64,000 bases of DNA from Eledone cirrhosa (taxonomy: Eukaryota): NCBI GenBank assembly GCA_964016885.1, contig OZ024741.1, forward strand, positions 90,582,001-90,646,000. Direction: 5' to 3'. The notes beneath the pieces are model-generated. The model was not told the DNA's origin. It made no database searches and worked only from the letters and a program-made list of their open reading frames with translations. Shown here one piece after another: positions 17,935 through 55,808 of the stretch. Position numbers and translations under genes: made by a program. Numbering within the stretch: the first letter of the stretch is position 1; the number at the start of each line of letters is the position of its first letter.

Positions 17935-17969
17935 CCCTATATATTTCGGATTCACATCCATCAACTGGG
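17935..17969 (-). ncRNA. Type I hammerhead-like motif with non-canonical core CAGUUGA (PLE-B pLTR)
   Basis: CC-CAGTTGA-T-GGAT gtga ATCC-GAAA-TATATA-GGG. Confidence 0.55.
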
Positions 17970-19598
17970 TTTTTTTTCCGGGGTGGGGGAAAAGGTTGTC
18001 TGTCGGACAAATCCGGAAGGCGTCTTTCGCTGTTTGCTGATTTGAATATCTGAGGTATTCGGCAGAGCGCGCGTGCGCGTGAAATGGGGTCGGTCGTACA
18101 AAGGTCAGCGGCCGAATGAGGGAGTGGGATGGCGCTAGCTGTCAGTCCATTCTCTGCCTGTTTGTTAGATGTTACTGTGTGTGTGTGTGCGTGTGTTGTT
18201 GTCTCGCTTGAGTGTGTGTGTGTGTTGTTGCCTTGTTCATCTGTATTGGCAGTGTAGTATGTTCGTATGGTGGAATGCTACAATGTGTGTGTGCGTGTGT
18301 GTGTGTGGTTGTCCCGTTTGCGTGTGTGTGTGTGTGCGTGTGTTGTGTGTTGTTGCATCGCTTGTTAACTTAAACCAGCCATTTCATTTCGCTTCTCTCT
18401 AATCGGTTGTTTATTTGCGGTTGCAGGCGTTTGATAAAAAGTGCTTCCTTGATACGTAACGTGCCGACGTTTCTTTCAGTCGCTAGAATTGTGACAACGG
18501 GCCTTCCGTCTTTGTTTCCGCATTTGTCTATGTGTTTCCGGAAAGACGAGGCCCTGGTTTTAGTGTGTTCCTTGATCCGGATGTGCAAAGGTCGAATTGT
18601 GCTACCTATGTAGTATTGGTTGCACCTGTCACATTCTATCTTATACACGACGTATGTGCGTAGGCAACAGTTAGCCAGGCGTATCGGGCAGTCTCTGAGG
18701 GAGCATGCGTCAATAGATTTTTCGGGTTTCCTGGAGAGGCATCTTCGCAGGGAGGGCCCGAGTGGGCCAGGTGGATGTCGAGGCCCTCCCTCCGTATAGC
18801 CTTGCGGATAGCGTTGGTGGTTTTCTCGCCCAGGTGTGGCATTTTAAGGAAGCACTTGCCTTGGGTGTTTCTCTGTCTCTTGCGTCTGGTGTCTCCTATT
18901 CTGTCTGTGATCGAGGTAGGGTACCCGTTCGTCTCCAGCACCTCGAGGAATCGCTTGGTATGAGTGACACCACTCGCGGGATCGCTGCATCTGTTTTTGA
19001 TTCGCGCGATCTCGTTCGTGATGTATCCTCTTTTGGCACTGTTAGGGAGGGCGGATTTGTAGTGAACGAATAGGTCCCTGCAGGCTGCCTTTCTGTAGAA
19101 GTTGCAGTGGATCCCTCCTTGTTCCGTGATGTTGATTCGGAAGTCGAGGAGGGCAAGTGACCCGTCTTCGTTCGGGTGTTCAACACTGAAGTCAATGTTC
19201 TCGCCCGTGTTGTTGAACGTCTCATAGATTCTGTTCGCCGTGTCTTGGTAAGATCTGAGGATGAGGATATCGTCCACGTATCTTGTGAAAAAGGCTACGG
19301 CGTTGGGGTGGCAGGCGTTGAGTGCCTTGCGTTCGAGGTTGTCCATGTAGGAGCTCGCTAGCGAGACAACAACACACGCACACACACACACAGTAACATC
19401 TAACAGACAGGCAGAGAATGGACTGACAGCTAGCGCCATCCCACTCCCTCATTCGGCCGCTGACCTTTGTACGACCGACCCCATTTCACGCGCACGCGCG
19501 CTCTGCCGAATACCTCAGATATTCAAATCAGCAAACAGCGAAAGACGCCTTCCGGATTTGTCCGACAGACAACCTTTTCCCCCACCCCGGAAAAAAAA

Positions 19599-19633
19599 CC
19601 CAGTTGATGGATGTGAATCCGAAATATATAGGG
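19599..19633 (+). ncRNA. Type I hammerhead-like motif with CAGUUGA core (PLE-B inverted pLTR)
   Basis: Identical to 17935-17969 on the opposite strand. Confidence 0.55.
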
Positions 19634-20132
19634 ACTATTAAATCTCTCCCAAGGTAACTCTCTCTTGTGTTGTTATTTTTATTTTTATCCTTTTACTCTT
19701 CCCTCCATTCTACACATCTCACACATCTTATACACACCACGCATCTCAACGTACACCCACTTACATCTCTCTCTCCACCACCGGACCTTGTTACCCGGAG
19801 ATTTACCCATTTGCATTGTCGAGGCTTCCAAACGACTTATAGATATTTACTTATTGTTCCACAATGCTTCAAGCAAACTTCAATACTCTCTTAAATAAAT
19901 AAATATATACACAAGCACAATAACAACAAACACATATAAGCACGCACTAGTAAACTAAGATAGAATACAATAACCAAAACACAGTCACCCAAACGCGAAC
20001 ACACACCAAACACTATACACACACGCAAACGCATGCGCAGAGAAGAAGACAAAAATAAATAAATAAATAAATAAATAAATAGACGGATTAAATAAAGATG
20101 GCGTAAATATACAATACAACAGGAGGAACATA

Positions 20133-20186
20133 ATAGCACCACTGACGATGTTGCAGATGTGCAACGAAAGAACTTTGTTAGACTAT
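20133..20186 (+). ncRNA. Type I hammerhead ribozyme in the PLE-A pLTR
   Basis: CTGACGA-T-GTTGCA gatg TGCAAC-GAAA. Stem II covaries with the copy at 52573. Confidence 0.8.
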
Positions 20187-20806
20187 ATATATATATGTGT
20201 TTATATCTATATTATATCTGTATTTTTGACCGTTGGTCAGTCAATGGTAAACATTGAGGACCGAATGAATTAACTGATATAAAAGATACAGTAGCGAAAA
20301 CCAACCAAACAGTGAGTGTGTTCTGTTATTAATTCTGGCAATATTATTACAACAACATGACCCTCCCCAAGTATAACAATATATATATATATAAATATAT
20401 GTATATTTTTGATACCTGTCTAATCAGCCAGCCATAAAATACATTAACCTATCGTTAAATCTATTTAGAGAACTATGGCAATACTTTTAAAGTTACAATC
20501 AAAATTAAGACAAAGTAAGTATTTAAAAAATAGTTGACACAACATGACAGAATGTTTAATAAGTTCGCTTTACAATCATTAGGCCCAGGTCTCGATAGAA
20601 CTGTGTGGCATATTGAGCATGTATTATTGACCATAGCCTCGGGTCGACTCATGCCTTGTGAGTGAAAATGTTCGAAGTGGAAATGGTTTGAAATCCCCTT
20701 AAATGAACTGTACAAAGTTCCAATTTGTCATATACTATATCCCACCAAATTTCCACGAGAATTTAGTTATGCTGCCCATTTCTGTGGAAATTGTAACCAT
20801 TTACAT

Positions 20807-52815: not shown

Positions 52816-53033
52816 CTATATATATAAATATATATATATATATATATATATATATATATATATATATATATATATATATATATATATATATATATATATA
52901 TATATACATATATATATTTATATATATATATATTTATATATATATATATACATATATATATATATATATATATATATATATATATATAATTCAAAATTCA
53001 ATAAGACCAAGGATCAATATTATTATTATTATT

Positions 53034-53180
53034 TATTTATACATCGCTACGGGCGTTTCAATGCGGATAGATTATCCCATCCACATATGGAGGAAAAAAA
53101 CACCGGATATTATCCGTAAGTTATTTACTCCATTATGGGCACTCTGCCTAAACGGTATTTCTTCAGGAAATGTATAAATA
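53034..53180 (-). ncRNA. Type I hammerhead with a structured stem II domain of about 100 nt
   Basis: Stem I TATTTATACATTTC/GCGATGTATAAATA, core CTGAAGA, stem II base AATACCG/CCGCATT (imperfect), then GAAA-CGCCCG-TA. Confidence 0.7.
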
Positions 53181-54543
53181 ATTAAAAAAATAACAATAAA
53201 TTGATTAATATCATAAGACCAGAATAATACAGGATTCAAAGCAATGTGCATTCAAATTATAAATTTACAAGTGCAAAGCATAAGCTTAGGTATGTTTTCA
53301 GACATGCCAAAAATAAAGATTTATCAGTGTTTTCCCACAAGCATGTTAGAATATATTAAATATATTAAATCTGTTAATTGGTTATAGTAGGAGTTGTAGA
53401 AAAAGTTTTCTTAAGGATACATGGCAGTGTTTTTCGTTATTTATCATAGACAGATTTGAAAAGATATTTTAGATTACGTTAGTCTAATGTAAGGGAAAAA
53501 GAAAATTATTTACAGACATATATATTTTTAACGTATATGTACACAGTTACCTAATATTTTTCTAATCAGGTTCTAAAGAAACTTTATTTCATGGGGTTGA
53601 TGCATTTCAAAAATGCACGGTTATTTCAAAGAAATCGCTTTTTTACCGGCATTACTTTATTACGGTTCCTTATCTAAATAGCTTTGTAGCGTTTATCAAG
53701 TATTTTCATACACATCAATATATCTATTAGATTAATATCTATTAGTTTAAAGAAATTTTTACAAACATCTAGGATTTGTTATGATTTAGTACATTATTAA
53801 GTTAAATCTATATTAATGTCAATAAATCGTTATTTATCGGTGCCAGTTTATTTAAATACCATTACAGTGTGTGGCTATTATCCTGATAAATGTTCAAATA
53901 TTATTCAAATCTTATTATTTTAAGGAATGTTTGCAAAAGACTAGTAGTTAATGCAGTATATATCTAATTAAATTTGTATTTATATTAATGCGTCTATAGA
54001 TGAAATCAGAATAAAGACCAGACATTAGAAAAAAGTATAATGGCTCTTAGTATATCCTTGGGGAGTTAGGTTTTCAACTTTCCAAATTTATCTGTATTTG
54101 GAACTTTTCTTATATAAGTATATTCCACATAAATATATGTTATATAAAGGACATATATATATATATATATATATATATATATATATATATATATATATAT
54201 ATATAAAGAAATACACAAGAGAATATAAACACATCCATATAAGTGTTTCATACACACCAACCTCCACATAAATGCCATTATTGAAATATGCATATACATA
54301 TACATAAATGTCATTTTTGAAATATGCACATATATATAAATATAGAAATATACATGAATACATATATAAAGATGCACATATACAGATATACCGTACATAC
54401 GAAAAGAAAACATAGGAAGTGTAAAGTAATTCATATAAAACCATATATATATATATATATATATATATATATATATATATATATATATATATATATATAT
54501 ATATATATATATATATATATATATATATATAGGAACGAGTAGG

Positions 54544-54639
54544 ACCCCGACGGCTGAGCCCAAGCCGTTTCGACGGCTAATTCTGGACTGAATGAAAATT
54601 GTTATCCTGGTACATGAATAGCCGAGCTTCTCAGGGGGT
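54544..54639 (-). ncRNA. Type I hammerhead with enlarged stem II loop and core CUGAGAA
   Basis: ACCCC-CTGAGAA-G..CGGCTA [about 39 nt] TAGCCG.C-GAAA-CGGCT tgggctc AGCCG-TC^GGGGT. Confidence 0.8.
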
Positions 54640-55763
54640 AATTCCATATATGGTAAAAGTGATTGTCACAAGGATTGGTCAAAAGTTTGTTGTTGAGACA
54701 TAATTCTATCATGGCAATTTGTGGAAGGAAGGGGTAGCTGAACTTGCCAGTAGAAGAAAGAGGGAGAGGGAGTGGAGGAAACCCAGTCGTGAGTTGATAG
54801 TGCCAACTACAGCAGGATCCTAAAGGCAGGAGGTCAAGAAAGTATACTAGGGAGGGGGAGGGGGAGGAAGTCGAAACAATAAGTAAATCAATATGGAGTA
54901 AATATATAGAATAATAATAAGAATGTTAAAAATATAAAAAAAAAACAATTTCTGGTTACTATTCCCTAACCACAATCATCAAGTCTCTCACTGGTACTGC
55001 TAAACTATAGAAAAGTTTACTAGGTGGGACGGAATTGTAGTGAAAGGATCTTATGAGTTAGTAGTAATCAACCAAATCTATCTTACAGTGACAGGTCAAC
55101 AAGTAGGGGGCCAAAATACTAAAGAAACTACTACGAAATAATAATTCAGAGTCCCGAAACTAATACGAAATAATAATTCAGAATCCCGAAAATGAATACT
55201 AATACTATATATAAGGGTGCCGCTACGATACAAAAATTCTAATACAAACTACATAAATGCTCGTACGATATATATGAAAAATTTGATACGGAAAATTAAT
55301 TCAGACCCCCCCCCCCCCCCCAAAAAAAAAAAAATACTGATATACGAGAAACTAAAGCAGGGATACCACTAAGAAATGTAGAAAGCACGGAAATGGGGCA
55401 GCCATCGGATAAGAAAGCAAGTATCTGGAGTCTATCACATCTGCTATAAAAAGCGGAGTCGGCCAATTGTATCATAGAATAGGGGATGGGGGTGGGGGTA
55501 CTGAGGCTACAAAGGACCGAAGGGCTGCCTCGGGGTGGACGAGAAAGTGAAAAGGACGACGAAAAAGAAGGAGAACTGGGGTGGAAGGACTATATATATA
55601 TACACACACATGAGCAAAAACCATAACTATGCATACACATATCTACACAGATATATAAATAAGTAGGTTCACACTCAAAATTAGGCTCATCAGCCGATGT
55701 AGGCTTTAGAGAATACTATATATTCTCAACAGCTCAAGAGTGTAGCAGAACAGGGAGAAATAC

Positions 55764-55808
55764 ACAATCTTGATAAGGGGCAATAACCCGGAGACAATTG
55801 TAGGTTGT
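55764..55808 (+). ncRNA. Decayed U3-A8 type I hammerhead
   Basis: ACAATC-TTGATAA-GGGG caataa CCCG-GAGA-CAATTG-TA^GGTTGT. GAAA has mutated to GAGA; stem III is the palindrome ACAATTGT. Confidence 0.65.

What the first reader, a model, noticed from the sequence alone, without database searches (positions are those of the whole stretch)
17935..55808. Very dense hammerhead 'zoo': 17 motifs from about 11 unrelated families in 38 kb
Seen: foldable type I HHR motifs at 17935, 19599, 20133, 23187, 24119, 27901, 40172, 40763, 41354, 42146, 42990, 49131, 52014, 52573, 53034, 54544 and 55764. Most lie within about 150 bp of a microsatellite junction, and several have palindromic stem III (ACGT, ACCGGT, ACAATTGT, ACTACGTAGT, ATATAT). 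Established: PLE pLTRs and metazoan retrozymes carry type I HHRs, and palindromic stem III permits dimeric cleavage. Inference: this genome may hold a large and under-annotated ecosystem of ribozyme-bearing autonomous and non-autonomous elements.
Basis: partly seen in the sequence, partly recalled or inferred. Interest (0 to 1): 0.75.

Follow-up and report, generated by a model that had tools for sequence, protein, structure and literature searches.

The report
Penelope hammerhead swarm with altered cores
The 17 motifs are hammerhead-shaped RNA motifs at the ends of Penelope-like jumping genes and their likely non-coding derivatives, at a density near the norm for this animal genome (an estimated 200,000 well-formed motifs), and two young families carry altered cores predicted to cut poorly, which would make it testable whether such elements need their ribozyme.

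Summary
Observation confirmed. All 17 sites parse as type I hammerheads in 11 sequence clusters, each a dispersed repeat family. My descriptor finds 11 of 17 (shuffles 0.04); the other six are decayed or atypical copies. The window is not a special zoo: 79 evenly spaced 10-kb genome samples gave 53 hits (shuffles 0.17), about 200,000 genome-wide by extrapolation; the window is 1.7-2.6 times the mean. Six families (A, B, D, F, H, J) end coding Penelope-like elements, one more probably does; E is a 591-nt retrozyme whose insertions end at two fixed sites and mostly share array-private variants, as rolling-circle copying predicts. Unusual: young family A has a fixed CAGUUGA core (U4A+A6U; 74 of 79 alignments, none canonical), and young family J has a C3-A8 mismatch where older copies have U3-A8. 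Both are predicted to cut poorly; cleavage is untested and no RNA run was listed. Hammerheads in Penelope elements and retrozymes are known; the count and this double core change were not found in the papers searched. The scan earlier noted two-armed retrozymes and single U4A or A6U cores on other DNA.

The parts
17935..17970 (-). Family A hammerhead-like motif, core CAGUUGA (U4A+A6U), 3' repeat of a young Penelope-like insertion
19599..19633 (+). Family A motif in the inverted arm of the same insertion; predicted cut after 19630
17713..19887 (.). Family A two-armed insertion: 5'-truncated RT+GIY-YIG arm on minus (17713-19359) and inverted 3'-end arm on plus (19360-19887), sitting in a simple repeat inside a family B element
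   Evidence: 496-bp inverted repeat, 99.4%; GIY-YIG
24119..24154 (+). Family A motif of an older subfamily (about 86% identical over the element), same CAGUUGA core, downstream of a GIY-YIG fragment (23420-24390)
20133..20185 (+). Family B motif, canonical core, extra U, stem II GUUGCA/UGCAAC; 3' end of a Neptune-like element (16095-17716 continued at 19892-20406)
52573..52625 (+). Family B motif, second subfamily, stem II GUCACA/UGUGAC (two compensatory changes versus 20133), one stem I mismatch
23187..23241 (+). Family C motif, canonical core, 10-bp stem II; short element with a fixed 5' boundary, likely non-autonomous
27901..27934 (+). Family D minimal motif (stem III ACGU, 2-bp stem I); 3' repeat of a Neptune-like element (about 24391-28022), very young family
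   Evidence: 4,861-bp repeat-ORF-repeat copy in L315
40097..41922 (-). Family E array: 3.09 units of a 591-nt non-coding retrozyme-like repeat between (TA)n tracts
40172..40259 (-). Family E motif 1, U3-A8 core, long stem II, 10-nt palindromic stem III; predicted cut after 40177
40763..40850 (-). Family E motif 2
41354..41441 (-). Family E motif 3
42146..42183 (-). Family F motif, U3-A8 core, stem III ACCGGU; family is the 3' end of a coding Penelope-like element
   Evidence: L305, L306
42990..43050 (+). Family G motif, decayed (G12A); old family, host element unresolved
49131..49169 (-). Family H motif, decayed, at the 3' end of a Hydra-like Penelope element (49072 to about 51947)
52014..52052 (+). 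Family H motif in the inverted arm (51948-52085), U3-A8 core
53034..53180 (-). Family I motif, canonical core at 53166, about 100-nt stem II, long stem I; old family, probably Hydra-like
   Evidence: (L307)
54544..54638 (-). Family J motif, C3-A8 mismatch core, hairpin stem III; 3' end of a young Hydra-like Penelope element
55764..55808 (+). Family K motif, U3-A8 core, decayed GAAA; old family with signs of a 335-351-nt repeat period

Best explanation
The 17 motifs are type I hammerhead folds carried near the 3' ends of many Penelope-like retrotransposon families and their likely non-coding derivatives, and they pile up here about as they do across this genome. Shown: each belongs to a dispersed repeat family; six families end coding RT+GIY-YIG elements; insertions are often 5'-truncated, two-armed and next to AT-rich simple repeats. 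Inferred mechanism: the element's endonuclease nicks AT-rich or (TA)n DNA, reverse transcription starts at two fixed internal sites 3' of the hammerhead, and early truncation leaves mostly the last few hundred bases, so the hammerhead is the most often deposited part, frequently twice, and later elements nest in the same repeats. For the retrozyme E, dimeric self-cleavage through the palindromic stem III likely releases a 591-nt monomer that circularises and is copied round the circle. For autonomous families A and J, cleavage is likely slow or dispensable, since young copies carry cores predicted to be crippled while the fold is kept.
For: Descriptor 11 versus 0.04 in shuffles; genome samples 53 versus 0.17. 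Genome searches return 28-59 matches per family. Repeat-ORF-repeat copies with hammerheads 3,254 bp (A, L304) and 4,861 bp (D, L315) apart; RT/EN upstream of F, J, H, B motifs. Covariation in lineage B: 2 stem II pairs changed on both sides, 97.9% cells paired versus 19-48% when slid; compensatory stem I pairs in E and K relatives. E: 23 of 23 scoreable arms end at +79/80 or +245-250 from the cut, 7 of 7 same-subfamily two-armed insertions use one end of each, six arrays share private variants in all units, circular fold z -7.2. Literature: min-HHRs in PLE repeats with extra base, U3-A8 and palindromic stem III (PMC4209133); two RT start sites and insertion unaffected by hammerhead mutants in vitro (PMC11167929); (TA)n targeting and inverted arms (PMC8557442).
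Against: No cleavage or expression data. Host elements of C, G, K and the partner of E were not found. The descriptor was tuned on this window. In one search the number of pairs changed on both sides was reached by 306 of 500 shuffles, and the rows are related. Some E arrays are not uniform (the window's 3'-most unit differs from the other two; L312 and L067 have variants in only some units), and shared variants would also follow from copying a homogenised source array. The mutagenesis paper used to call A and J crippled reports low activity for all core changes except the G3-C8 swap, which would include U3-A8, known to be active in nature, so it over-predicts loss.
Confidence: 0.85

Rival explanations
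1. Family A's CAGUUGA core (and J's C3-A8 core) is an active natural variant, rescued by dimerisation, by the element's own protein, or by a new A4-U7 pair, and cleavage is still needed.
For: The core is the same from 73% to 100% identity while loop 2 and the palindrome length vary in structure-keeping ways; C3-G8, G5, A9, G12-A15.1, U16.1, H17 and G10.1-C11.1 are all kept; the anole PLE hammerhead cleaves only with protein; natural A6C and U4C variants keep some activity.
Against: [quoted passage not shown]
Confidence: 0.25
2. The window is a special local cluster (a selected or targeted ribozyme hotspot) rather than ordinary background.
For: 11 well-formed motifs versus 4.3 expected (P 0.02); 17 in 38 kb.
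Against: By similarity 17 versus 10.1 (P 0.09); one unselected 10-kb sample held 10; the window was chosen for this trait; several window copies are decayed.
Confidence: 0.07
3. E arrays arise by DNA-level tandem amplification (unequal crossover, slippage) of an inserted monomer, not by rolling-circle reverse transcription.
For: Units within some arrays differ; the 2026 preprint invokes this satellite model.
Against: Both inverted arms are multimeric with the same private variants, 5' ends are scattered while 3' ends are fixed at two sites, and arrays are dispersed at near 100% identity.
Confidence: 0.15
4. The motifs are chance matches in AT-rich, microsatellite-rich DNA.
For: Rfam finds none; a strict scan finds 1 of 17; some stems I are only 2 bp.
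Against: Shuffles give 0.04 per window; family majorities fit better than the window copies and covary; position at PLE ends is as published.
Confidence: 0.02

Closest known systems
Minimal and atypical type I hammerheads in pLTRs of metazoan Penelope-like elements (Cervera and De la Pena 2014, PMC4209133; parts 1-2 of 4 read, one of three supplement files not searchable)
   Same: Type I topology, extra base between 9 and 10.1, U3-A8 variants, palindromic stem III, short stem I, many families per genome, mostly single truncated copies and opposite-strand pairs.
   Different: Estimated count (about 200,000) far above the counts given there (about 2,000-9,000 per genome; descriptors differ); stems II up to about 100 nt; fixed U4A+A6U and C3-A8 cores not seen in the text or searchable supplements.
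Hydra- and Neptune-clade Penelope-like elements (Craig et al. 2021, PMC8557442; passages and supplement term search)
   Same: H and J carry the Hydra marks (DKT in J, CxCx5C linker, CxxC and CxH, no CCHH); B and D carry the CX4CxxC linker; (TA)n targets, inverted arms and tails.
   Different: Clades assigned by motif only, no tree; family A has a reduced linker and is unplaced; tails reach about 95 (C) and 165 nt (E) versus 30-40 bp.
Metazoan non-LTR retrozymes (PMC7229834, parts 2-3 of 6 read; bioRxiv 10.64898/2026.07.22.740005, parts 1 and 3 of 5 read, supplements closed)
   Same: E is a non-coding tandem repeat with one type I hammerhead per unit and a highly self-paired predicted circle.
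   Different: 591 nt versus about 170-400 nt; U3-A8 core and long stem II; two-armed insertions with two fixed ends; RNA not shown; partner element not found.
Anole Poseidon element PAc (Frangieh et al. 2024, PMC11167929; parts 1-2 of 4 read)
   Same: Two internal RT start sites 3' of the hammerhead; AT-rich targets; insertion in vitro does not need cleavage.
   Different: PAc has a canonical, protein-assisted core; here two lineages have fixed non-canonical cores.
Natural hammerhead core variants (Perreault et al. 2011, PMC3088659; section 8 and passages read, figures not visible)
   Same: Single changes at positions 4 and 6 (U4C, A6C) occur naturally with low activity.
   Different: No U4A+A6U double change in the text seen; those were single loci, not high-copy retroelement families.

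Membership tests
Type I hammerhead ribozyme | Three stems around the core in type I order | tested here: met
   stem I only 2 bp in B, D and some A copies
Type I hammerhead ribozyme | Core C3-U4-G5-A6-N7-G8-A9 or U3-A8 swap, GAAA, UH (families B, C, D, E, F, G, H, I, K majorities) | tested here: met
   window copies of G, K and one H are decayed
Type I hammerhead ribozyme | Same core, families A and young J | tested here: not met
   A: CAGUUGA in 74 of 79 alignments, none canonical; J: C3-A8 in 26 of 26 rows at >=92.8% identity. These are filed as hammerhead-like folds, not as proven members.
Type I hammerhead ribozyme | Covariation of stems | tested here: met
   lineage B, (mixed controls); single compensations in E and K relatives; not shown for A, C, D, F
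Type I hammerhead ribozyme | Site-specific self-cleavage | not testable with these tools
   needs in vitro assay or RNA ends
EN+ Penelope-like element | RT followed by C-terminal GIY-YIG, hammerhead in the terminal repeat (A, B, D, F, H, J) | tested here: met
   (Pfam GIY-YIG for A only)
EN+ Penelope-like element | Same, families C, G, I, K | tested here: inconclusive
   I: endonuclease fragment 1.5 kb upstream in one locus; C, G, K: none found in 11-14 loci with 1.5-kb flanks
EN+ Penelope-like element | Tandem or inverted arms with a tail at one end | tested here: met
Hydra clade (H, J) | DKT, CxCx5C linker, no CCHH, CxxC and CxH around E and N | tested here: met
   translations against the description; DKT clear in J, altered in the decayed window H copy
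Hydra or Neptune clade | Placement in an RT tree | not tested
   no reference sequences were held
Non-LTR retrozyme (E) | Non-coding tandem unit with one type I hammerhead per unit | tested here: met
Non-LTR retrozyme (E) | Highly self-paired predicted circle | tested here: met
   -173 kcal/mol versus -132 +/- 5.6 in 60 shuffles, 62% paired
Non-LTR retrozyme (E) | Expressed as circular RNA | not testable with these tools
   no RNA run available to lay
Type-SGC permuted hammerhead | Cut site upstream of GAAA and CUGANGA blocks | tested here: inconclusive
   the 17 motifs are all type I order; other CTGANGA and CAGANGA sites in the window were only checked for repetition and core conservation, none stood out; no permuted-structure scan was run

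The most novel reading that the evidence does not exclude
Family A's CAGUUGA core is a working natural hammerhead outside the accepted core consensus (two 'invariant' uridine-turn bases changed together, possibly rescued by an A4-U7 pair, dimerisation or the element's protein), kept through successive waves of a thriving retrotransposon in a genome holding the largest hammerhead complement yet estimated.
Probability: 0.2. Interest if true: 0.75.

Novelty: new variant of a known kind. Interest (0 to 1): 0.52.

Why it matters
What hammerheads do for Penelope-like elements is stated as unclear (PMC8557442), and one in vitro study found cleavage dispensable. This genome supplies natural test pairs: family J with U3-A8 (older) versus C3-A8 (young) cores, family A with a fixed double change, and a very young retrozyme (E) whose insertions carry a two-start, rolling-circle footprint. 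Either outcome is informative: dead cores in spreading elements would show cleavage is optional in vivo; active ones would widen the core consensus and mean standard searches miss whole families (Rfam found 0 of 17). The estimated 130,000-280,000 well-formed motifs would meet or exceed the 126,247 reported for axolotl, though descriptors differ.

Tried and rejected
Rfam scan at E<=1: no hammerhead hit. Strict descriptor: 1 of 17, too strict. RNA runs for family E: no RNA holder listed; both read-laying runs used contigs and cannot show RNA ends or levels. Alternative register for family A (UUGAUGG as core): rejected because stem II and stem I then break or core positions 8-9 vanish; no canonical CTGANGA lies upstream on the sense strand. 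A coding constraint on the A motif: rejected because subfamilies differ by 1-2-nt indels there. Search for other CAGUUGA families with different stems: 85 pattern matches, all but 2 or 3 were single-change A copies; the one other checked (L288) was a chance match in an unrelated repeat. Sister family of A with a canonical core: none among loci held. Autonomous partner of E: none among loci held. Pfam named GIY-YIG in only 2 of 23 fragments and no PLE RT. Single-sequence MFE folds often do not give the hammerhead fold, as expected for motifs with weak stem III. Earlier-findings look-ups by sequence for A, J, E: nothing. Literature searches for the core: and supplement searches found no CAGUUGA hammerhead; figures and one supplement file were not visible and may bear on this. 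Octopus plus hammerhead searches gave no genome-wide count; giant squid paper lists 235 Rfam hits (passage); an Octopus vulgaris repeat paper does not use the word ribozyme in its main text (passages).
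Full report
Setting. The window is repeat-rich animal DNA from a 3.0-Gb assembly with 78 tandem-repeat rows and fragments of L1-like, RTE-like, mariner and Penelope-like elements. The one protein relative found for the family A RT region is labelled Octopus bimaculoides (53% identity), so an octopod host is likely; this is an inference from one hit.

Observation. I parsed each coordinate by hand on both strands. All 17 give a type I hammerhead-like arrangement. Rfam found none and a strict descriptor one. 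A relaxed descriptor, tuned on the window, recovered 11 of 17 at score 20 or more, against 0.04 in 100 shuffles. The six missed are decayed or have long or imperfect stems. BLAST clustering separates the 17 into 11 clusters, named A-K here. Ten of 17 lie within 150 bp of a simple repeat versus 35% of random probes.

Families. One genome search per family returned 28-59 matches each, with only the best 40 candidates scored; these are not copy numbers. A, C, D, E, F and J have many copies 96-100% identical to the window; G, I and K are old (about 70-88%). Alignments of 14-30 loci per family show majority letters that repair the window's defects: G12 in G, GAAA and a 6-bp stem I in K, the ACGUACGU palindrome in H, stem I in B, C and F. 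Covariation: in 14 lineage B rows two stem II pairs change on both sides and 97.9% of cells pair, versus 19-48% for slid controls; 0 of 500 shuffles reached the covariation score but 306 of 500 reached the number of doubly changed pairs, and the rows are related. Relatives of E and K each show one compensatory stem I pair.

Density. I took 79 evenly spaced 10-kb samples (80 asked, one absent). The same descriptor gave 53 hits versus 0.17 in 6 shuffles: 0.67 per 10 kb (bootstrap 0.44-0.92), or about 200,000 (130,000-280,000) genome-wide by extrapolation from large contigs only. The window's 11 compare with 4.3 expected (P 0.02). Counting decayed copies by similarity gives 125 in 790 kb, about 470,000 by extrapolation, and the window's 17 compare with 10.1 (P 0.09). 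The 162 motifs held form 44 clusters, a few likely false. So the zoo is the genome, not the window. Published counts seen: axolotl 126,247, Acropora over 6,000, Xenopus tropicalis about 9,000 and coelacanth about 4,000; descriptors differ.

Host elements. A: two motifs 3,254 bp apart flank an RT+GIY-YIG frame with breaks in L304; in the window it is a truncated, two-armed insertion nested in a B element. D: motifs 4,861 bp apart in L315. F: RT and endonuclease 1.6 kb upstream in L305 and L306. J and H: Hydra-type motifs by the description in PMC8557442. B: endonuclease 330-670 bp upstream in several loci. I: one locus with a Hydra-like endonuclease 1.5 kb upstream. C: 14 loci share only 111-208 bp upstream and most start at one palindromic site, so it is likely a short non-autonomous element. 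K shows a 335-351-nt period in 3 of 14 loci. G is unresolved.

Family E. The unit is 591 nt and non-coding. In one search I examined the window and 16 loci (a subset of those holding E; L065 and L066 are one place). All 23 scoreable arms end at +79/80 or +245-250 from the predicted cut; two arms ran off the locus. All 7 same-subfamily two-armed insertions have one end of each kind. Six arrays share private variants across all units, in L312 across both arms. Against a clean single-circle model, the window's 3'-most unit differs from its neighbours at one base and L312 and L067 have partial variants. The unit folds as a circle 7.2 SD below shuffles. This matches the two-start mechanism shown for the anole element acting on a circular or multimeric template; the circle is inferred.

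Altered cores. Family A reads CCC-CAGUUGA-U-GGAU(loop)AUCC-GAAA-UAUA-UA-GGG: C3-G8, G5, A9, G12-A15.1 and the cut-site bases are kept but U4 is A and A6 is U. In 79 alignments from 73% to 100% identity, 74 have this core, 5 have single further changes and none is canonical; most of these loci were chosen by similarity or by a pattern containing the core, and some overlap, but incidental copies agree, and 2,054 contigs of run X2 show no variant at 5% or more at the core (one row not shown). Loop 2 varies and stem III changes by two bases while staying palindromic. Family J: 26 of 26 rows at 92.8% identity or more have C3-A8 (mostly selected, with duplicates; two are from unselected samples); of 8 older rows 6 have U3-A8, 1 C3-A8, 1 a gap. 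In run X2 about half the depth has U3, and runs X1 and X6 show only U3 in two contigs each, so C3-A8 looks derived. Pairwise mutagenesis of a type III hammerhead found low activity for all other changes in this turn (passage), but that statement would also cover U3-A8, which is active. I put about 65% on slow or no cleavage without consequence for spreading, 25% on rescued activity.

Comparison and novelty. Hammerheads in Penelope repeats, many families per genome, U3-A8 cores, palindromic stem III and PLE-derived retrozymes are all published. Not found in the papers and supplements I could search: a count of this size in a cephalopod, the U4A+A6U core, and a young C3-A8 lineage. Earlier AI notes of this scan report two-armed retrozymes and a U4A family in this genome and A6U families in other genomes; they are unchecked, and my reading was formed before seeing them. 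Hammerhead position numbering and the A4-U7 idea rest on my own knowledge and inference. Papers seen: PMC4209133 parts 1-2 of 4; 10.64898/2026.07.22.740005 parts 1 and 3 of 5; PMC11167929 parts 1-2 of 4; PMC7229834 parts 2-3 of 6; PMC3088659 section 8 and passages; PMC8557442, PMC9901934, PMC6155905, PMC13282606, PMC6962438, PMC10085705 passages only.

Verdict. Real, correctly read, and of a known kind, with a very large estimated genome-wide load and two testable core variants. New variant of a known kind; interest 0.52.

Noticed in passing
unselected samples L208, L219, L225, L232, L238, L244, L249, L265, L268: The 3' half of the family J hammerhead (GAAA, stem III, cut site) occurs 15 times in 790 kb, mostly truncated a few tens of bases upstream and often mirrored into short palindromes, versus 2 copies with the core; run X2 shows the same 10-fold depth excess. 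Suggests reverse transcription stalls at the structure.
   Followed up: partly
L197, L199, L219, L223, L231, L232, L253, L263, L267, L304: An abundant canonical-core lineage absent from the window, with long stems I and II, covarying stem II and palindromic stem III switching between AU-rich and GC-rich forms.
   Followed up: partly
window:23074-23320 and L111-L124: Family C copies start at the centre of one short palindrome about 125 nt upstream of the core and have two 3' ends about 95 nt apart.
   Followed up: partly
L264: One well-formed motif with a U4A core and hairpin stem III in an unselected sample, like the family in earlier scan notes.
   Followed up: no
window:56379-61204 and 62236-64000: L1/Tx1-like element with ORF1 and endonuclease-RT frames (Pfam Exo_endo_phos, RVT_1, zf-RVT), followed by the start of a related copy.
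   Followed up: no
window:21395-22210, also 1994-2176 and 15469-15663: SINE-like repeat of about 200 bp, in tandem at 21.4-22.2 kb and dispersed elsewhere.
   Followed up: no
window:28866-29870: Mariner-like element with internal deletion and 161-bp inverted ends inside (TA)n.
   Followed up: no
(family F search): Most of the best family F matches lie on the plus strand of the assembly (37 of 41); probably a search artefact.
   Followed up: no
window:39654-40009: Separate Hydra-like endonuclease fragment directly beyond the (TA)n that ends the E array.
   Followed up: partly
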